Shown here: piece by piece, positions 4,635 through 27,350 of the stretch
Numbering within the stretch: position 1 is the first letter of the stretch
How the letters are laid out: each line of letters starts with the position of its first letter
From: Eledone cirrhosa
Taxonomy: Eukaryota
Direction of reading: 5' to 3'
DNA length: 64,000 nt
NCBI GenBank assembly: GCA_964016885.1
Contig: OZ024765.1
Span: forward strand, 2,852,001-2,916,000
Made by a program: the position numbers and the translations under genes
Notes under the pieces: generated by a model
Databases searched by the model: none
What the model saw: the letters and a program-made list of their open reading frames with translations, nothing else
Told to the model about the DNA's origin: nothing

Positions 4635-6080
4635 CCGAACCCACTCCCCGTCCTCACACTCCCACCAACACCACCCCTTTCTCTGTAAAGTTATGTTGGT
4701 ACCACAACATACCTGTGTGTCTACGTATTTAATATAACATCACAGTTACTTCTAACTCGTGTTATGGCAGTGCCCCAGCATGGCCTAGAACACGTAATAC
4801 ACATATAATACACATAACACACACACACATTAATATTTTATTCAATTAAGGTAGCACTAATAACCCTATTAGAGTTCAATATAGTAATATATATTTAATT
4901 GTTTCTACTTTTTGGGACAAGGCCAGCAATAACTCAGTACATTACTGGTACTTTATTTTATCGACCCCGTAAGGATGAAAGGCAAAGTTAACTAGTAATA
5001 TATATTTAATGTAAATATCTCATCAAAGCAAACTTTGCTTTGCTCGTATTTTATTACATGTTAAATATTCAAAAACTAGACTCAGTCGTCAACCACATAC
5101 GATCCTCTTGTTTTTGTGAGGTTCCTGGCAAATAACGAATAGGCTATGTAGCCGGTAAACCCTAAAGGGACGCAACACACCTCGCTATAGAGTTTCACCA
5201 GCTCCTTCCTTCTGTTGTCCGTATCTGTTTATGTATTTACGTGTCGATGTATGTGTGTGTATGTATGTATGTGTGAGATTGAACTTCTGTTGTCGCTATC
5301 TGTTAATGTATTTATCTACAGATGTGTGTGTATGTTTACACCTCTGTTGTTGTGTATGTGTTTATATATTTACATGTAGACGTGTGTGTGTGGGTTATAT
5401 GTTTATATATTTACATGTAGACGTGTGTGTGTAGGTTATATGTTTATATATTTACATGTAGACGTGTGTGTGTGTGTTGGTTTACACCTCTGTTGTCTAT
5501 GTGTTTATGTAGTTATCTATATATGTGTGTGTGTTTATGTGTTGACACCTCTGTTGTCTATCTGTTTATATATTTACATGTAGACGTGTGTGTGTATGTG
5601 TTGGTACTTGTTGTCTATATATTTATGTATTTATCTATAGATGTGTGTGTTGGCACCTCGTTGTCTATATGTTTATGTATTTACATGTAGACGTGTGTGT
5701 GTATGTGTTGACACTTCTGTTGTCTATATGTTTATGTATTTACATGTAGACGTGTGTGTGTGTGTGTGTTGGTACATCTGTTGTCTATATGTTTATGTAT
5801 TTATCTATAGATGTGTGTGTATGTGTTGGCACTTCTGTTGTCTATATGTTTATGTAGTTATCTATAGATGTGTGTGTGTGTAACTAAAGTTAATGTAAGT
5901 TACCAATGGACGACTAAATGCTTTTAAATTGTTTTTTAACAATTGATAGTGGAAAAGATTTCAAATTGTCTTAACTCAGGCCGCAACTCATGGAGTCTGA
6001 CACTCTTACCGGCTACATAGCCTCTTCCACACAACACACACGATATTAACAAATGGAAACTATATTTATAAAACCATATT

Positions 6081-6145
6081 TATTTCATTATACATATTTC
6101 AAGGACACCAAGTTAAATTATGGTGTGCTTTCATCAGATAAAATA
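6081..6145 (-). ncRNA. Type I hammerhead ribozyme motif (AT-rich family)
   Basis: Minus strand: TATTTTAT-CTGATGA-AAGcACACCA..TGGTGTcCTT-GAAA-tatgta-TA-ATGAAATA. Confidence 0.7.
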
Positions 6146-6224
6146 TAATATAGATCAGTTTTATAAATAAATATTGACATACCCTTAAAGAATGCAACCA
6201 TTACTGTTGGAAGCTCCCGGATAG

Positions 6225-6278
<54 letters not shown>

Positions 6279-6629
6279 AGAAGGGATATTTAATTTGTTG
6301 GAAATTCAACAAATATAAATGTTTATAACTGATTAAGAGCACTCGACAGATTTCTGGAGTAAACATAAATAACAAAACAAACGACACAGTACATTGAAAA
6401 AATATATTAGTTTAACGGGATATATCAGGTGGTGTCCACCGTTAAAAAACGTACTCAATACGTTAGTATTTTCTTAGAATGAAACGGTTCTAGTCCTGTA
6501 GAAGCCATTTCTATATCAAATTTGTTTATAAATAATAAATGTGTGCGCGTGCACACACACATATATATACATATATATACATATATATATACGATATTAA
6601 CAAATGGAAACTATATTTATAAAACCATA

Positions 6630-6693
6630 TTTATATTATACATATTTCAAGGATACCATGTTAAATTATGGTATGCCTTCATCAGACAAAATA
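6630..6693 (-). ncRNA. Type I hammerhead ribozyme motif (AT-rich family, second tandem copy)
   Basis: Minus strand: CTGATGA-AGGcATACCAT..ATGGTATcCTT-GAAA-tatgta-TA; compensatory change relative to the 6081 copy; weaker stem I. Confidence 0.6.
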
Positions 6694-7125
6694 CAATATA
6701 TACCAGTTTTATAAATAAACATTGACGTACCCTTTTAAAATGCAACCGTTACTTTTGGAAGACATCAGGATATATATCTATCTATCTAAGGCGGGTAAAA
6801 TTCCCGAGATCCATGGACGAGTTCTCTCCAGCGGTCTCTGTCCCTCATTATCGCTGCCATATCCTGCATCTCCAACAGACCAGTGTCTGTCCTTAGGGCA
6901 TCAACATATGTTAACCTTGGTCTTCCTCTTCTAGTGTGTCCATGTAGGGGTTCCCAAAGGATATATATATATATATAAAGCTAGATACGAACAGTTCGGA
7001 TCTAGCTGTCGAAACGGCCGGAGCTCTGCCGTCGGGGTCATACCTTTTCCTATTACCCACTCTACTACCCCTAAGTATCGAGTACTCTGGTGAGTTACGG
7101 TCCATCTGGTTTCTTACCGCACTTT

Positions 7126-13000: not shown

Positions 13001-16000
13001 TATTCTATGGACCCCGTAAGGATGAAAGGCAAAGTTAACCTCGGTGGGATATGAACTTAGAACGTACGGGGCCGTAACTCTATGCTGCCAATCATGGCGT
13101 CCGACCCTCTACCGAATCTGCCAATAATGATTTCTACTTTAGGCACAAGTGTTATCTACTGCTAAGGTATTAGGAAGGGCATCCAGCTGTAGAAACCAGG
13201 CCCAAATCAGTTCTGTATGAACAAGACAAGGTCACCCGACCTGGAATTGCCCACAACAGGACAACCCGTCTAACCCATGCTAGCGTGGAACAATGGACGT
13301 AAAACGGTGATGATGATGATGATGATAAAGCTGTTGATAGAGATGTAAAGGTCCTTACTTTTGAGGTATGGTAAAACTGGTGTTGAAGACTGGTTGGCAG
13401 TGACTGCTCTGTAAGCCCGTTGCTTTGGGGGTTTTATTTTTTTACTGATGCCTATCACATTCATAAAAGGATATGTGTGGCTGTGACTTAGTTGAGGTCT
13501 TGAAAGAGAAGAAGAAGAAAAGTGGTGGTGTAATGGTGGTGGTGGTGTAGTGTAGTGTGGTAGCGGTGGTGGTAGTTGCATTGGTGGTAGTAGTGGTGGT
13601 GGTGGTGGTGTAGTGTAGTGTGGTAGCAGTGGTGGTGATGGTGCTAGTTGCATTGGTGGTAGTAGTGGTGGTGGTGGTGGTGGAGCTGTAGTGAGGTAGC
13701 GGTGGTAATAGTGGTGGATATGGTGGTGGTGGTAATAATGATGATGATGGTAGTGGTTTTAAAGTGTTTATATTTATCTAAAAATCTTCAATTATTGCAT
13801 TTTATAAGAACCTCTGTTAAGTTATGTTCCAAACACCAATTTAATAAGACAGTGTCTTTCATTAGAAATATGGTAATGAAATGGTTAAAGTGTTTATATT
13901 TATCTAAAAACCTTCCATCATAATTTTATATAAGAACCTTTGTTAAGTTATGTTCCAAACACCAGGTTAATAAGACAATGTCTTTCATTAGAAATATGGT
14001 AATGAAAGGGTTAAAGTGTTTATATTTATCTAAAAACCTTCCATTATAATTTTATATAAGAACCTTTGTTAAGTTATGTTCCAAACACCTATGGTTCTAT
14101 GATACAAAACTGTTTATATTTATCTAAAACCCTTCAATTATTGTTTTGTGTAAGAACCTTTGTTAAGTTATGTTCCCAACAATTGGAACACTTGTCATTA
14201 TTACCAACAACACCATTCCATCCATGCAAACACATTCGCTCCGGATGCTCTACCGATTTCCAGCTAATTCAGAGGAGCGCTCCTGGGGACTCCCGGCGAC
14301 CCCCAGGTTTCTAGGCTAGGAATGAAAGCCACTAAATCTCACATGTTTACAGCAATTTCCAGTTAATTCACAGGAGCGCTCCTGGGGACTCCCGGCGACC
14401 CCCAGGTTTCTAGGCTAGGAATGAAAGCCACTGAATCTCACATGTTTACAGCAATTTCCAGCTAATTCACAGGAGCGCTCCTGGGGACTCCCGGTGACCC
14501 CCAGGTTTCTAGGCTAGGAATGAAAGCCACTGAATCTCACATGTTTACAGCAATTTCCAGCTAATTCACAGGAGCGCTCCTGGGGACTCCCGGTGACCCC
14601 CAGGTTTCTAGGCTAGGAATGAAAGCCACTAAATCTTACATGTTTACAGTTTCGATGTTGTTTGCCGCCAAGCACAGGCCGCCATCTTCGTTGCTGGCAT
14701 CGTGGAACAACGACTGCATCCTCTTGGTTTTCGCTGTCAACTCCTCCTTGCTTTCCCCCAGGGAAGCCATCTTCTGCAAGTTCCCGGGGTGTAGGGAAAG
14801 TCCGAAGACATTCAAGGAAAGGAGTCCTGCGTTGTGTCCATGTTGTTGTTGTTGTTGTAGTTGTTGTTGTTGTTGGTGGTGGTGGTGGTGATGGTGTTGT
14901 TGTTGTTGTTGTTTCTTCTTGCTCTTACTGGAAAGAAAAATCATCACCATCATTATCATCACTAACACCATCATCACTATCATCATCATCATCACTATCA
15001 TCTCCATCATCACCATCATTATCACTGTCATCATCATCATCATCATCATTATTTTAAACATACCGTATTTCTTTAGAAATACGAAATTCCAATATATATA
15101 CATATATATCTATATAGCATCATCATCATCATCATTTTACATCCGCTTTTCCCTGTTTGCAAGGGTGGGACGGGAACTGATTCTGGCTTGATTTCTACAG
15201 CTGGATGCCCTTCCTAACACCAACCTCATTTACAGTGAGTGCTGGGTGCTTTTTTGCCGTGGCACCTCCACGACCACTTTGCAGTGGAATGATAGGGACC
15301 CCAGTCCCTATCATCTCATTTCTACAGCTGAGTAAACTGGAGCAATGTGAAATAAAGTGTCTTGCTGAAGGAAACAACACATCACCCAATATATATATCT
15401 ATATATATATATACATATAAATATATATATATATAAGTGCATATATATGGTCTTCAAAATGTTTTAAATTAAACATACGGTATAGTGCCAAATATACTAT
15501 ACATCCATTCATGTATACATCGCTATTTCAGAGCACCAATCCTAATACCTAATTTTTGCTGGACCGGCAATCACTCTGTATAATCAGCTCCTGATTATTA
15601 CTGGAATTCTATAAGAATCCAGCCTCTATAATTTTCAGCGGAAGCAGGGGGGCATGGCTCTGATGATAGCCAACCAACGAGAAACAGACTGTCAGCTTCT
15701 CTCCCATCTTTCGCCGAAAAGAAGTAAGTGACATAGTCACCACTTTAAAACTGATAGCGTATAGTCTTCTAAATGTTTTTAATTAAACATACGGTATATT
15801 GCCAAATATACTATACATACATTCATATATATATATTTAGGTTTGTTGGTTCACCACTGGATAGAACTGGTCATTCCGTATGGTCAATCTCGATGTAATA
15901 TTATGGAGAGCACTCAACGTAATGCAACTCACCTGTCCTTGTTTGTGTAGTTGGTGGTGCGAGTAAAGAGTTAATTATTATAAAATAACAGGAGGCTGGA

Positions 16001-18261
16001 CTGGTGTAAATCCTTGAAAGGTTTATTATACTATGATCATTTCAATGACCGGGTTCAGTATGAATCCGGTGACATCATCAGGTATTCAAAATATAACAAA
16101 AGAATATGACAGATAAAATCCATGGGGTTGAAAATCAGAGACAAGAGGACGACCGACTATTTAGCAGCTTCTACCTCAGTCGGTCACCCTTGAGGTATAT
16201 TTTGAATACCTGATGATGTCACCGGATTCATACTGAACCCGGTCATTGAAATGATCATAGTATAATAAACCTTTCAAGGATTTACACCAGTCCAGCCTCC
16301 TGTTATTTTATAATATATATATAATATAAACACTATGATGATGATGATGATTATAAAACAGGTCTTACCTCTTCAGCTTGTTATATTTCTTCAAGACTAT
16401 GCGAGGATTCCAAGCGTTGGTGCCATCAATGGGACATACAGAGTGAGAATGAAGGAGCCAGTTATCGATACATTCTCGATGGAACTGGAATATATAGAAA
16501 CAGAAACATCCCAATGTGATCACGGTGTTCGGACTTTGGTCAGTTCTGACAAAGAGTGTTCGGACTTTGGTCAGTTCTGACAAAGAGTGTTTGGATTTTG
16601 GTCAGTTCTGACAAAGAGTGTTTGGACTTTGGTCAGTTCTGACAAAGAGTGTTCGGACTTTGGTCAGTTCTGACAAAGAGTGTTCAGACTTTGGTCAGTT
16701 CTGACAAAGAGTGTTTGAACTTTGGTCAGTTCTGACAAAGAGTGTTTGAACTTTGGTCAGTTCTGACAAAGAGTGTTTGAACTTTGGTCAGTTCTGACAA
16801 AGAGTGTTTGAACTTTGGTCAGTTCTGACAAAGAGTGTTCGGACTTTGGTCAGTTCTGACAAAGAGTGTTTGGACTTTGGTCAGTTCTGACAAAGCGTGC
16901 TCCAAACACCAGGTTAATAAGACAGTGTCTTTCATTAGAAATATAGTAATGAAAGGGTTAAAGTGTTTATATTTATTTAAAAACCTTCCTCCACCATAAT
17001 TGTATGCCAGAACCTTTGTTAAGTTATGTTCCAAAAACGTACCTTGTGTCTACATGGTAGCCTCCGTACCAGTGTCCCCAATTGGAAGGATCTGAGACAG
17101 ATGTGACACTGTGCCCCTGTGGCTAGGAGGACACTGCCCTCTGTCACCTTCTCCATTGGAATTGATTCAATGATCTTCTCCGGTAGAGAACTGAACTCTT
17201 TCAGTTCTTCACTGCAAATACATACAAAAGATTTGGCAATTATCATCATCACCATCATTGTGATCATAATCACCACCACCACGACTATCACCACCACCAC
17301 CACTATCACCACCACCACCAATATCATCATCACCACCACCACCACTACCACCACCACCACCACTATCACCACCACCACCACCACTATCATCACCACCATC
17401 ATCACCAATATCATCAGATAGACAGATGGAATAGAAAGATAGACAGACAGACAGACAGATAAACATAGAGATAGGTAGGTAGATAGATAGATATGTTTCT
17501 TTATTAGCCACAGGGGCACAAAAGAAGGGGACAAATACAAAGGGGGAAGTTTACATACAATAAAAACGTGTAAAATGTTATCACAATTGTAAATTAAAAG
17601 TTAATCGATTTTCCCCAATAGGGGGAGACATTACATATGGGTAACACATACCCCCGAAAAAAATGTGCAACCCTCATCTCCAGGAGTACAAAGAGTTTGT
17701 ACTCCTTTCCTCTCCTCCTCCTTTTCCTCAACCTACAGGCTGATATAGAGAGAAGGCCCATTCACTGGGGCCATTCTCGCCACTTTCACCCACCAGATAG
17801 ATAGATATATAGATAGATAGGTAGATAGATATATAGATAGATAGGTAGGTAGATAGATAGATAGATAGATAGGTAGGTAGGTAGATAGATAGTAAAATAG
17901 CCATAGAGATTTATAGATAGACATAGAGATAGTTAGATAGATCTATAGATGGACAAACAGACAGACAGAGAGACATGCTAATTACCTATCCAACTGAAGC
18001 AGTGTATCATAGTCCTCCTCTTTGAGGTCACGGCCCATTAAGTTCTTAACGAAGGCTTCGGGTAACGAGTAATTAAAATCACGTTGGGCTAGTTTCCACC
18101 TCTGGACTTTGTTCTGTGAAAAACATTGGAGATTGTGGGTCACAAGAGGTCACTGTGGGTCACAGCTATATGTAGAGGTCAGTAGCATCAGAGGTCAACT
18201 GTCAAAGGTCAGTCATATATATATATACATATATATAAACACACACATACATACATTTATA

Positions 18262-18302
<41 letters not shown>

Positions 18303-19825
18303 ATAAAATTATTGTGTACAGTGCTCAGGTGCACTACAACTCATCAAAGGTGCATGTATAGTACATAGAATAATGTACAAATGTCAGGGAAGTGAACAGT
18401 GTATGAGTCATGATATACACACAGACATGTGTGTGTGTTTGAATAGAAAGGGAATATCAGGTGTAGTGTTGGTGAATCTCAGGAAGCATGGAGGTTTTAA
18501 AGAATGCAGTGTCTCGACAGCTAACAACTGATGCAGGTAGTTTGTTCCATGGAGGTTTTGAAGGATGCAGTGTCTCAACAGCTAACAACTGATGCAGGTA
18601 GTTTGTTCCATGGAGGTTTTAAAGGATGCAATGTCTCGACAGCTAACAACTGATGCTGGTAGTTTGTTCCATGGAGGTTTTTAAGGATGCAATGTCTCGA
18701 CAGCCAACAACTGATGCAGGGAGTTTGTTCCATGGAGGTTTTAAAGGATGCAATGTCTCAACAGCCAACAACTGATGCAGGGAGTTTGTTCCATAGAGGT
18801 TTTAAAGGATGCAGTGTCTCGACAGCTAACAACTGATGCAGGTAGTTTGTTCCATGGAGGTTTTAAAGGATGCAATGTCTCAACAGCTAACAACTGATGC
18901 TGGTAGTTTGTTCCATGGAGGTTTTAAAGGATGCAGTGTCTCGACAGCTAACAACTGATGCAGGTAGTTTGTTCCATGGAGGTTTTAAAGGATGCAATGT
19001 CTCAACAGCTAACAACTGATGCTGGTAGTTTGTTCCATGGAGGTTTTAAAGGATGCAGTGTCTCGACAGCTAACAACTGATGCCGGTAGTTTGTTCCATG
19101 GAGGTTTTAAAGGATGCAGTGTCTCGACAGCTAACAACTGATGCAGGTAGTTTGTTCCATGGAGGTTTTAAAGGATGCAATGTCTCAACAGCTAACAACT
19201 GATGCTGGTAGTTTGTTCCATGGAGGTTTTAAAGGATGCAATGTCTCAACAGCTAACAACTGATGCTGGTAGTTTGTTCCATGGAGGTTTTAAAGGATGC
19301 AGTGTCTCGACAGCTAACAACTGATGCAGGTAGTTTGTTCCATGGAGGTTTTAAAGGATGCAATGTCTCAACAGCTAACAACTGATGCTGGTAGTTTGTT
19401 CCATGGAGGTTTTAAAGGATGCAGTGTCTCGACAGCTAACAACTGATGCCGGTAGTTTGTTCCATGGAGGTTTTAAAGGATGCAGTGTCTCGACAGCTAA
19501 CAACTGATGCAGGTAGTTTGTTCCATGCTTCAGCAACTCTGAGCATGAAAATATGTTTGCAAAGATCATGGGAGCTGTGCTGTTTTCTGACTTTGTGGGC
19601 ATGCCCACGTGTGTTAGACACATGGAAGTCAAAAAGGTGCTCAGGGTTGTTGTTGGAAAGATGGTTAATAATTTTGTACACACACACACACACACATGCA
19701 TACATTTATACTTATATATATATATAATACCTGTACTCACCTGTCTAAATTTAAACTGGTGTTCATCATGGACAGGTGTATTGAAGCAATGTTGGCACAG
19801 GTGATAGCAGCTGCATGTAATACAC

Positions 19826-22306: not shown

Positions 22307-25300
22307 CCACCAACAACAACAACAACAACAACACCACCACCAACAACACCACCACCAACAACACCACCAACAACAACAACAACACCACCAACAACACCAC
22401 CAACAACAACAACAACACCACCAACAACAACAACACCAACAACAACAACAACACCACCAACAACAACACCACCACCAACAACAACAACACCAACAACAAC
22501 ACCACCAACAACAACACCACCAACAACAACAACAACAACAACAACAACACCAACAACAACAACACCACCAACAACAACACCAACACCAACAACAACAACA
22601 ACACCACCAACAACAACACCACCACCAACAACAACAACACCAACAACAACACCACCAACAACAACACCACCAACAACAACAACAACAACAACAACAACAC
22701 CAACAACAACAACACCACCAACAACACCACCAACAACACCACCAACAACAACAACAACACCACCAACAACAACAACACCAACAACAACAACACCACCACC
22801 AACAACAACAACACCAACAACAACACCACCAACAACAACACCACCAACAACAACAACAACAACAACACCAACAACAACAACACCACCAACAACACCACCA
22901 ACAACAACACCACCAACAACAACACCACCAACAACACCACCAACAACAACACCACCAACAACAACACCACCAACAACAACACCAACAACACCAACACCAC
23001 CAACAACAACAACACCAACACCACCAACAACAACAACACCACCAACAACACCAACAACAACAACACCAACAACACCAACACCACCAACAACAACAACACC
23101 AACACCAACACCACCAACAACAACACCACCACCAACAACACCACCAACAACAACACCAACAACACCACCAACAACAACACCAACAACACCACCAACAACA
23201 ACAACACCACCAACAACACCACCAACAACACCAACACCACCAACAACAACAACACCAACACCAACACCACCAACAACAACAACACCACCAACAACAACAC
23301 CAACAACACCAACACCACCAACAACAACAACACCAACACCACCACCAACAACAACAACACCAACAACACCACCAACAACAACACCACCAACAACAACACC
23401 ACCAACAACAACACCAACAACACCACCAACAACAACAACACCACCAACAACACCACCAACAACAACACCACCAACAACAACAACACCACCAACAACACCA
23501 ACAACAACAACACCAACAACACCAACACCACCAACAACAACAACACCAACAACAACAACACCAACAACACCAACACCACCAACAACAACAACACCACCAA
23601 CAAAACCACCAACAACAACACCACCAACAACAACACCACCAACAACAACACCAACAACAACACCACCAACAACACCAACACCACCAACAACAACAACACC
23701 AACAACAACACCACCAACAACACCAACACCACCAACAACAACACCACCAACAACAACAACACCACCAACAACAACACCACCAACAACACCACCAACAACA
23801 ACAACACCAACACCACCAACAACAACAACAACACCAACAACAACAACAACACCACCAACAACACCACCAACAACAACACCACCAGCAACAACACCGCCAA
23901 CAACAACAACACCAACACCACCAACAACAACAACACCAACAACACCACCAACAACAACACCACCAACAACAACACCAACACCACCAACAACAACAACAAC
24001 ACCACCAACAACAACACCACCAACAACAACACCACCAACAACAACAACACCAACAACACCAACACCACCAACAACAACAACACCACCAACAACAACACCA
24101 CCAACAACAACAACAACACCAACAACAACAACACCAACAACACCAACACCACCAACAACAACAACACCACCAACAACAACAACACCAACAACACCAACAC
24201 CACCAACAACAACAACACCACCAACAACAACACCACCAACAACAACAACAACACCAACAACAACAACACCAACAACACCAACACCACCAACAACAACAAC
24301 ACCACCAACAACAACAACACCAACAACACCAACACCACCAACAACAACAACACCACCAACAACAACACCACCAACACCAACACCAACAACAACAACAACA
24401 ACACCACCAACAACACCACCAACAGCAACAACACCGCCAACAACAACAACACCAACACCACCAACAACAACAACACCAACAACACCACCAACAACAACAC
24501 CACCAACAACAACACCAACACCACCAACAACAACAACAACACCACCAACAACAACACCACCAACAACAACACCACCAACAACAACAACACCAACAACACC
24601 AACACCACCAACAACAACAACACCAACACCAACACCAACAACAACAACAACAACACCACCAACAACACCACCAACAACAACACCACCAGCAACAACACCC
24701 CCAACAACAACACCGCCAACAACAACAACACCAACACCAACTTACCTGCAATATGTGACAGGCAGGTGAGATTTCAACAGATTATCCAAACATATTGGAC
24801 AGACTGTGTCCTCGTCAAGATCCCTCTGGTTGACGGTGTTGGTCTCAGCTGACTCTTCATCATCTTTGGAAGACTCTGACGGTTCCTCGTCCTCATTTGA
24901 CGGTTTTTTATTGACGGCATTCACAGTAGTTTGTTTCGACAGCCTGTCCAATAGGTCCTCAATTTCTCTCTCAGACAAACCCTTCTGCCAGCTCACTAGA
25001 ACAGGTGAATTGTTTACAGGTGTGTTATTAATATTGAGTTAATTAATTAATTGGAACAATTAATCAACATATATATATATGCAGAGGTTATATTTAATTT
25101 GTTGGGATACAACAAGCTAAAATATTTTTATAACTGATATAAAGCACTCAACAAATTATTGGAGTAAATATACAATATATTAACAAATGGAAACTATATT
25201 TATAAAACCATATTTATTTCATTATACATATTTCAAGGGCCACCAAAGCAGATTATCGTGCGCTTTCATCAGATAAAATACAATACAGATTAGTTTTATG

Positions 25301-27350
25301 AATAAATATTGACATACCCTGAAAAAATGCAACCTTAACGGTTGGAGCTTCCTGGATAGTCATCTATCTTCCTGGATAGTCATCTATCTTCCTGGATAGT
25401 CATCTATCTTCCTGGATAGTCATCTATCTTCCTGGATAGTCATCTATAGTTGGAGCTTCCTGGATAGTCATCTATCTTCCTGGATAGTCATCTATCTTCC
25501 TGGATAGTCATCTATCTTCCTGGATAGTCATCTATCTTCCTGGATAGTCATCTATCTTCCTGGATAGTCATCTATCTTCCTGGATAGTCATCTATAGTTG
25601 GAGCTTCCTGGATAGTCATCTATCTTCCTGGATAGTCATCTATCTTCCTGGATAGTCATCTATAGTTGGAGCTTCCTGGATAGTCATCTATCTTCCTGGA
25701 TAGTCATTACTATCCAGGAAGCTCCAACCATTAAGGTTGCATTTTTTCAGGGTATGTCAATATTTATTTATAAAACTAATCCGTATTGTATTTTATCTGA
25801 TGAAAGCGCACCATAATCTGCCTTGGTGGCCCTTGAATTATGTATAATAAAATAAATATGGTTTTATAAATATAGTTTCCATTTGTTAATATATTGTATA
25901 TATATATATATATATATTTATCTCGTTAAGGGTGAAAGCAGCGATTCTTTGCTTAATCTTTAATCTGTTATTTTATACTTTAATCTGTTGAAGCCCACCT
26001 CAGCTGTAGAAATGAGATGATAGGACTGAGGTCCATATCATTCCACTACAAAGGGGTCGTGGAGGTGCCACGGCAAAAAAGCACCCAGCCCACACTGTAA
26101 AGTGGGGGTGTAGGCACCGCGGCAAAAAAGCACCCAGCCCACACTGTAAAGTGGGCGTGTAGGCACCACGGCAAAAAAGCACCCAGCCCACACTGTAAAG
26201 TGGGGGTGTAGGCACCACGGAAAAAAAGCACCTAGCCCACACTGTAAAGTGGGGGCGTAGGCACCACGGCAAAAAAGCACCCAGCCCACACTGTAAAGTG
26301 GGGGCGTAGGCACCACGGCAAAAAAGCACCCAGCCCACACTGTAAAGTGGGGGTGTAGGCACCACGGCAAAAAAGCACCCAGCCCACACTGTAAAGTGGG
26401 GGTGTAGGCACCACGGAAAAAAAGCACCCAGCCCACACTGTAAATGAGGTTGGTGTTTGGAAGGGCATCCAGCTGTAGAAATCAAGCCAGAATCAGTTCC
26501 CGTATGAGCAAGACAAGGTCAGCTGACCGGACACTGCCCACAACAGGACAACGCATCTAACCCATGCTAGCATGGAAGAACGGACATAAAACGGTGACGA
26601 TGATGATGATATAATCTTCATTTTATGTGCACTTTGTATACGTACAGGTATGTATAAAATATGTACAGGTATGTATAAAATATGTACAGGTATGTATAAA
26701 ATATGTACAGGTATGTATAAAATATGTACAGGTAATGTATAAAATATGTACAGGTAATGTATAAAATATGTACAGGTAATGTATAAAATATGTACAGGTA
26801 ATGTATAAAATATGTACAGGTAATGTATAAAATATGTACAGGTAATGTATAAAATATGTACAGGTAATGTATAAAATATGTACAGGTAATGTATAAAATA
26901 TGTACAGGTATGTATAAAATATGTACAGGTAATGTATAAATTAACAGACACACAGTATATTTACATGGATCTTTCATCGGAATACGGAACTTCTTCAATA
27001 ACAGCCAACAGATATGTATACACAGTTCTTTGGTCTTGGAGAACACCTGACAGGTGCAGCTGTGTTTCTGTCCCAGGTATGTCTAGAAAAATGACACATG
27101 ACAGCACTAACTACATTAGAATAGTGATAGTACTACTGTGTTGTGGTCTTCATCCATTCCTCAATGACTGTCTACTGAATGACACCATGCATACATGATC
27201 CCGTAACTCCCAAGTGTATTTTTTTTTTAACCCTAGGGCAGCCCCTCCTCTCCAGGTCTGAATATAGCAGATTTATTTCTGAAGGATAGAGAGAGTGAAA
27301 GTGAGAAAGAGATATAGAGAATCAACCCCAGTACTTGACTGGTATTTTAA

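What the first reader, a model, noticed from the sequence alone, without database searches (positions are those of the whole stretch)
15976..16315. Perfect 120-bp hairpin made of two inverted hammerhead copies, ~54 nt from the RING2 exon donor
The arms have no mismatches, implying a recent event or homogenisation. Each contains a hammerhead, so both strands encode one. In ZSWIM2 pre-mRNA the antisense arm is transcribed first and would trap the sense ribozyme in dsRNA, which may explain how a self-cleaving motif is tolerated in an intron. Inverted pLTR arrangements are known for Penelope insertions. The duplex is also an ideal ADAR substrate next to a splice site.
Basis: partly seen in the sequence, partly recalled or inferred. 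Interest (0 to 1): 0.7.

Follow-up and report, generated by a model that had tools for sequence, protein, structure and literature searches.

The report
Head-to-head Penelope insertion in an intron
The hairpin is real but ordinary: it is the back-to-back end of one of over a thousand copies of a non-coding jumping gene, likely written into both sides of a DNA break by a Penelope-type copying enzyme, and nothing shows that it serves the host gene.

Summary
The hairpin is real: two identical 120-nt arms (15976-16095, 16196-16315), each with a minimal type I hammerhead motif, 53 nt into an intron of a ZSWIM2-like gene. It is part of a 480-nt insertion (15836-16315) in (TA)n, the truncated end of a ~2-kb non-coding Penelope-like element with 1354 exact hits of a 30-mer in this genome. 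Head-to-head arms are routine: 41 of 84 sampled loci have them. In 36 of 40 such pairs one arm ends at a fixed site 1 and the other 140 nt further at site 2. A Hydra-clade element in the same genome follows the same rule (18 of 20). This points to priming from both strands of one break (inferred). The perfect arms do not show youth: the copy has 10 differences from its subfamily majority, all outside the arms. Homogenisation has no consistent support. The antisense arm comes first in every head-to-head pair, so the 'trap' is geometry, not evidence of selection. Cleavage and editing were not testable (no RNA run listed). The scan has already noted this anatomy on other DNA of this genome. A new member of a known kind; low interest.

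The parts
15836..16315 (.). Whole insertion: two 5'-truncated copies of the terminal region (pLTR) of a non-coding Penelope-like element, joined head to head
15836..15975 (-). 140-nt one-sided tail between site 1 and site 2; its outer end (15836) is site 2
15912..15971 (-). Bulged hairpin just behind site 1 (4 bp, TT bulge, 4 bp); each pair kept in 100-105 of 104-107 copies; changed at two positions in this copy
15927..15935 (-). CAG|GTGAGT, a full-consensus donor-like site made by a private change at 15934; use untested
   Evidence: sequence; variant counts
15976..16095 (-). Left arm; sense ribozyme copy in the host pre-mRNA
16028..16085 (-). Minimal type I hammerhead motif; C3 at 16081; predicted cut between 16032 and 16031
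16096..16194 (-). 5' part of the pLTR, present only on the long copy; forms its own GC-rich hairpin (about 16142-16192); its 5' end lies in a family hot spot of 5' ends
16194..16196 (.). Inversion junction; position varies from copy to copy, and near-identical junctions recur in L003, L025, L030
16196..16315 (+). Right arm; short inverted copy whose outer end (16315) is site 1; antisense in the host pre-mRNA
16206..16263 (+). Minimal type I hammerhead motif; C3 at 16210; predicted cut between 16259 and 16260
15826..15835 (.). (TA)n target, left flank
   Evidence: sequence
16316..16328 (.). TA-rich target, right flank; a target duplication cannot be told
   Evidence: sequence
16369..16484 (-). 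Host exon with the second half of a RING finger (ZSWIM2-like), predicted
14928..16368 (-). Predicted host intron (1441 nt) that holds the insertion

Best explanation
The hairpin is the head-to-head end of a truncated copy of a ~2-kb non-coding Penelope-like element, likely made when a borrowed Hydra-type enzyme cut a (TA)n run on both strands and copied the element's RNA from both broken ends, and it is probably a neutral passenger in the intron. Shown: the family, the ~2-kb unit without a long ORF, the two fixed 3' ends, the one-end-each rule, the variable junction and the (TA)n flanks. Inferred: one DNA end primed at site 2 (15836) and ran 359 nt, the other primed at site 1 (16315) and ran 120 nt, and the two cDNA ends were joined. 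The overlap, which holds the hammerhead, therefore appears twice and inverted. The templates were uncut RNA. In the host pre-mRNA the duplex would prevent ribozyme folding, as a by-product. Odds: Penelope-type insertion about 0.95; two-strand priming about 0.65; Hydra as driver about 0.7; no host function about 0.8.
For: Family: 1354 exact hits of a 30-mer, 0 for the reversed control; 37 of 40 scored places, two of them this window's, are 100% identical over 98 nt. Full units show inverted truncated copy + pLTR + body + pLTR + tail with a period of 2024 nt in L063. The longest ATG frames are 60-126 aa in 5 units, and a Hydra ORF has no tblastn hit inside the units tested. In a sample taken in genome order, 41 of 84 loci are head-to-head; 36 of 40 classifiable pairs have one site-1 and one site-2 end (p 2e-7). 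The tail is on the long arm in 15 and the short arm in 15 of 30 loci chosen for this layout, and the junction varies. Arms of one insertion share non-majority variants 4-6 times more than random pairs (example L204). 119 of 134 segments run through the cut site. A 713-aa element with DKT, CxCx5C and GIY-YIG-like motifs has the same layout: 18 of 20 pairs mixed (counted by hand), CTGTTATTTTA at site 1 and bulged hairpins behind both sites. Papers: inverted truncated copy and one-sided tail (PMC8557442, PMC3846280); two internal RT start sites delimit the tail, both strands are cut and extended, uncut RNA is the template (PMC11167929).
Against: No coding element that shares this pLTR was found, so the driver is assigned by shared motifs only. 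PMC3846280 proposes self-priming on an antisense template for the same head-to-head structures. The tail is 140 nt, not the 30-40 bp described. The window copy has 0 of 225 arm columns but 10 of 232 other columns off the majority (p 0.002, chosen after the fact), and L051 shows the same pattern. Paired arm columns had fewer rare variants than unpaired ones in some cuts (p 0.025 and 0.068; p 0.004 in the body-selected subset) though not in others (p 0.46; 0.66; pooled 0.42). No read spans this locus.
Confidence: 0.85

Rival explanations
1. The hairpin has been kept or repaired because it matters to the host: it silences the ribozyme, is edited by ADAR, or brings a new perfect donor (15932) close to the real one, so that splicing of the RING2 exon is tuned.
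For: Both arms equal the subfamily majority while spacer and tail carry 10 differences. The duplex starts 53 nt from the donor and holds 79 adenosines. A private change makes CAG|GTGAGT; its use would put a stop codon right after the RING exon (sequence).
Against: At 1.5-2.5% divergence a perfect pair arises with probability 0.003-0.03, among what are probably hundreds of such hairpins (estimate). The donor lies outside the duplex. A second head-to-head hammerhead pair of another family sits in the same gene (25123-25332 and 25737-25904). Slow hammerheads in introns are tolerated (PMC2995048).
Confidence: 0.08
2. The same element, but the inverted arm arises by fold-back self-priming or template switching of a single cDNA rather than by priming at both DNA ends.
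For: Proposed for Penelope head-to-head structures (PMC3846280, passages). Arms share private variants.
Against: The two outer ends fall on two different fixed sites in 36 of 40 pairs. In several pairs (L074, L085, L099, L134, L141) the two copies do not overlap at all, which a fold-back does not give.
Confidence: 0.25
3. A MITE-type DNA transposon with 120-bp terminal inverted repeats and a TA target duplication.
For: Long inverted repeats around a short spacer, flanked by TA.
Against: Junctions and arm lengths vary between copies, the tail lies outside the repeats on one side only, 43 of 84 loci show no inverted partner, and tandem 2-kb units exist.
Confidence: 0.02
4. An assembly or polishing artefact made the second arm or erased differences between the arms.
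For: No record spans the locus. Such repeats trouble assemblies (PMC8557442). Both arms equal the family majority.
Against: The outer ends coincide with the family's two fixed sites, the flanks differ, and the layout recurs with varied junctions and 1-16 mismatches elsewhere. An artefactual origin of the arm is very unlikely; polishing of a few bases cannot be excluded.
Confidence: 0.05

Closest known systems
Endonuclease-bearing Penelope-like elements with an inverted 5'-truncated pLTR and one-sided tail (PMC8557442 Fig. 2; Adineta vaga Pen2a, PMC3846280)
   Same: Head-to-head inverted truncated copy, partial tandems, tail at one end, hammerhead in the pLTR.
   Different: No ORF in the ~2-kb unit; tail 140 nt instead of 30-40 bp; here the whole insertion is only two short terminal pieces.
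Hydra clade PLEs (PMC8557442; Hydra-1_Obim in its supplement)
   Same: (TA)n target, hammerhead near the 3' end; a Hydra-like family in this genome shares the site-1 motif, the bulged hairpins and the one-end-each rule.
   Different: No shared long sequence with the Hydra families seen; the hammerhead listed for Hydra-1_Obim differs; this element codes for nothing.
Poseidon from Anolis carolinensis (PMC11167929)
   Same: Two internal start sites delimit the tail; AT-rich target; uncut RNA used as template.
   Different: Autonomous, ORF begins inside the hammerhead, short tail; the one-site-per-strand rule is not stated in the parts read.
Non-autonomous Chlamys elements such as MRC1 (PMC8557442) and metazoan non-LTR retrozymes (PMC7229834; bioRxiv 10.64898/2026.07.22.740005)
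   Same: Non-coding, carried by PLE machinery (proposed), tandem copies; retrozymes carry type I hammerheads.
   Different: Retrozymes are 150-450-nt tandem units with mostly canonical ribozymes; this unit is ~2 kb with a minimal motif and is mostly dispersed and truncated. Most Chlamys elements lack canonical hammerheads.

Membership tests
Penelope-like element (EN+ type), non-autonomous | pLTRs in partial tandem | tested here: met
   L063, L062, L128 and others; period 2024 nt
Penelope-like element (EN+ type), non-autonomous | Inverted 5'-truncated copy at the 5' end | tested here: met
   41 of 84 loci
Penelope-like element (EN+ type), non-autonomous | Optional tail at one end | tested here: met
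   36 of 40 pairs; length 140 nt rather than 30-40
Penelope-like element (EN+ type), non-autonomous | Hammerhead motif in the pLTR | tested here: met
Autonomous PLE | ORF with RT and GIY-YIG endonuclease | tested here: not met
   longest ATG frames 60-126 aa in 5 units; no Hydra tblastn hit inside units
Hydra clade (as driver) | (TA)n insertion preference | tested here: met
   TA- or TAA-repeat flank behind the tail-less arm in all 30 loci
Hydra clade (as driver) | A coding Hydra element that shares this pLTR | tested here: inconclusive
   none among loci fetched; only short motifs shared; genome search scores only the best candidates
Minimal type I hammerhead ribozyme | Core CUGANGA, GAAA, UH with stems I-III | tested here: met
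   4-bp stem I, interrupted stem II with U-U base, palindromic stem III AUGAUCAU, UA site; core kept in 94-99% of about 205 segments; 3 of 105 columns differ between subfamilies against 32 of 235 outside, p 0.002
Minimal type I hammerhead ribozyme | Match to an Rfam hammerhead model | tested here: not met
   0 matches at gathering score; only that threshold was run
Minimal type I hammerhead ribozyme | Self-cleavage | not testable with these tools
   indirect test inconclusive: 3 of 73 5' ends at the cut site, expected about 1.1, p 0.09; the active fold scores -5.4 against -15.4 kcal/mol for the best fold
Non-LTR retrozyme | 150-450-nt tandem units with consecutive hammerheads | tested here: not met
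   unit about 2 kb
MITE | Fixed terminal inverted repeats enclosing the whole element | tested here: not met

The most novel reading that the evidence does not exclude
These hairpins are fossils of the unsolved Penelope integration step: a dimeric Hydra-type enzyme primes both strands of one (TA)n break, one at each of two hairpin-marked start sites on uncut RNA, and joins the two cDNAs head to head. The one-site-per-end rule (36 of 40 here, 18 of 20 in a coding family) makes this directly testable, and this non-coding family marks out the RNA signals needed.
Probability: 0.6. Interest if true: 0.55.

Novelty: new member of a known kind. Interest (0 to 1): 0.27.

Why it matters
As a locus it matters little: it is one of many such insertions. 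As a family it gives counts that constrain how Penelope-like elements integrate, which is still open: the tail is not an optional extra but marks one of two ends of each event. A non-coding family that keeps its hammerhead and start-site hairpins almost unchanged across two subfamilies also shows which RNA parts are under selection. A search for 'Penelope' + 'twin priming' + 'inverted' + 'both strands' found 0 papers, and 'octopus' + 'Penelope' + 'hammerhead' found no description of this family; these are narrow searches of a partial library. The scan's own earlier notes already describe the same anatomy in this genome.

Tried and rejected
Rfam at gathering score: nothing. Sequencing runs: no RNA holder listed, so expression, splicing and editing were not tested. 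Four runs laid on 15560-16530 showed only the repeat families, no record across the locus and no depth on the exon; support for this locus in reads, and its presence in related animals, stays open. Editing fossils: no excess of sense A>G (0.0078 against T>C 0.0118); copies with many T>C share positions and are a sub-lineage; no same-strand hyper-edited copy in 213 loci, duplicates included. Cleavage footprint in 5' ends: not significant. Coding partner: Hydra-like ORFs beside L084, L100 and L108 are separated from the element by (TA)n runs and are separate insertions. The L175 family has a different 3' end and no Pfam match. Homogenisation: mixed signals, pooled arm-independent sample p 0.42. 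The -25272 hammerhead was tried as an unpaired control in the same gene, but it has an inverted partner. The look-up of earlier findings by sequence gave nothing. PMC3365414 held nothing relevant. MITE and retrozyme readings rejected as above.
Full report
Observation. The arms 15976-16095 and 16196-16315 are exact reverse complements over 120 nt, 127 nt at 98%, and fold far below shuffles (z -33). Each holds CTGATGA, an interrupted stem II with a U-U base, GAAA, a palindromic stem III (AUGAUCAU), a UA cut site and a 4-bp stem I. Rfam does not recognise it at gathering score. The host gene runs on the minus strand. Exon 16369-16484 has a sub-threshold RING match, an upstream ZZ exon has ZSWIM2 as best PDB hit, and the predicted donor lies 53 nt from the hairpin. 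The label 'octopus' comes from earlier notes of the scan and from my recall, not from a call of mine.

What it is. A search of the own genome gave 1934 candidates, 40 scored, most with the same inverted layout. A 30-mer of the arm has 1354 exact hits and its reversed control none. Long copies show a unit of about 2 kb: in L063 an inverted 1166-bp truncated copy is followed by pLTR, tail, body, pLTR and tail. Five full units have no ATG frame above 126 aa and no tblastn match to a Hydra protein. This is the anatomy described for Penelope-like elements: an inverted 5'-truncated copy at the 5' end and a tail at one end (PMC8557442, passages, section 11 and supplement look-ups; PMC3846280, passages).

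How it arises. I sampled the first 100 listed pattern hits on contig C1; 99 were fetched, and 5 second members of pairs and 1 duplicate were dropped, leaving 84 loci. Of these, 41 are head-to-head. Of 40 classifiable pairs, 36 have one arm ending at site 1 (about 52-56 nt behind the cut site) and the other at site 2 (about 194-196 nt); 4 have equal ends and 1 pair could not be classed. Thirty of the fetched loci had only 1.5 kb of flank, so distant partners may be missed. One apparent tail-to-tail case (L075) was seen. The 5' ends are scattered, with a cluster at -175 to -155 (14 of 73, expected 5.6; window chosen after looking) where the long arm of this copy starts. 119 of 134 segments cross the cut site, so the templates were uncut. 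In the anole element, both target strands are cut and extended, two internal start sites delimit the tail, and uncut RNA is the substrate (PMC11167929, parts 1-2 of 4). I infer that each end of one break primed at one of the two sites and that the two cDNAs were joined. Arms of one insertion share non-majority variants 4-6 times more often than random pairs, so both came from the same source RNA or locus. Whether one or two RNA molecules were used is not resolved. A published rival is self-priming on an antisense template; pairs whose copies do not overlap speak against it.

The likely driver. A protein search found a large family with open frames up to about 713 aa. L175 has the RWR, DKT and CxCx5C motifs given for Hydra and resembles the published Hydra alignment by eye. 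It ends in (TA)n, has CTGTTATTTTA at its site 1 as ours does, and obeys the same rule in 18 of 20 pairs (counted by hand; duplicates and pairs without a visible end left out). Following earlier notes of the scan, I checked for bulged hairpins behind both start sites. They are present in our family (each pair of the first hairpin kept in 100-105 of 104-107 copies, one position alternating U-A and U-G) and, by eye, in the Hydra family; the minimum-energy fold of those stretches did not reproduce all of them. A Hydra-like copy in L108 has a hammerhead with the same kind of palindromic stem III and UA site. No coding element with our pLTR was found, so Hydra is likely, not shown.

The ribozyme. 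Two subfamilies differ at 3 of 105 columns in the hammerhead and the 50 nt behind it, against 32 of 235 in spacer and tail (p 0.002). The common variants lie in loop II or keep a pair. The region is therefore under selection in the source elements. Activity is untested. The active fold is not the predicted best fold, stem III is self-complementary as in motifs that need a dimer (PMC7229834, passages), and the anole motif needed protein. Only 3 of 73 5' ends lie at the cut site (p 0.09).

Are perfect arms special? The copy differs from its subfamily majority at 10 places, 5 at CpG, all outside the arms, and no other scored tail is closer than 96%, so it is not very young. Within-insertion arm mismatch in subfamily A is 0.041 against 0.046 for random pairs (0.032 against 0.043 in B). 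4 of 62 near-complete pairs are perfect in a set enriched for intact arms, and 0 of 13 in a set chosen without regard to the arms. Paired against unpaired arm columns gave 0.036 and 0.040 in that set (p 0.42), but p 0.004 in its body-selected part and p 0.46, 0.025 and 0.068 in the C1 sample by variant cut-off. A perfect pair has probability 0.003-0.03 by chance, enough among hundreds of hairpins (my estimate). Conversion would often fix new variants in both arms, whereas both arms here equal the majority. Chance is the best reading; a weak protective effect of pairing, or polishing, is not excluded.

Effect on the host. Once made, the sense arm is predicted to pair fully with the earlier antisense arm. 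That holds for every head-to-head pair on either strand, and a second pair of another family lies in the same gene. Introns cut by a slow hammerhead still splice (PMC2995048, passages citing Dye 2006 and Fong 2009). The donor lies outside the duplex. Long perfect duplexes are ADAR substrates (general knowledge), but no RNA run was listed and no edited fossil was found. One locus-specific point: a private change at 15934 creates CAG|GTGAGT in the tail, 436 nt behind the real donor and much closer once the hairpin folds. Its use would add a stop right after the RING exon. This is untested.

Verdict. Observation confirmed, interpretation partly supported. It is a routine inverted-pLTR insertion of a non-coding, probably Hydra-driven family that I did not find described (bioRxiv 10.64898/2026.07.22.740005, part 1 of 5 read, its supplements closed). 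The scan has noted the same anatomy on other DNA of this genome. New member of a known kind; interest 0.27.

Noticed in passing
window 15927-15935, minus strand: A private change makes a full-consensus donor CAG|GTGAGT inside the tail, in the host's sense; using it would add a stop after the RING exon.
   Followed up: partly
window 15455-15825: Another high-copy repeat with a direct repeat (about 15455-15515 and 15766-15825) and a decayed hammerhead core at +15660; our element sits in its TA end.
   Followed up: partly
window 25123-25332 and 25737-25904: Head-to-head pair (96% alike) of a different hammerhead family inside the same gene; same-family copies at 6043-6197 and 6582-6745 without a partner in the window.
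   Followed up: partly
window +9403 and +115: Two more minimal hammerhead motifs of other families that meet the descriptor.
   Followed up: no
window 14256-14649, 16525-16900, 18365-19640: Tandem repeats of 99, 31 and 61 bp; the 99-bp repeat overlaps the end of the predicted exon that starts at 14927.
   Followed up: no
L175, L156 and L155-L190: A large Hydra-like family with open frames up to about 713 aa and a hammerhead-like motif with CAGAAGA in place of CUGANGA; tail about 90 nt.
   Followed up: partly
L007, L011, L213 and others: A at the cut site reads G in 11 of 213 segments, in both arms of some insertions: copies with a predicted dead ribozyme still spread.
   Followed up: partly
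L001, L051, L151: Perfect pairs whose unpaired parts are diverged; weak, inconsistent hint that paired arms gather fewer changes.
   Followed up: partly
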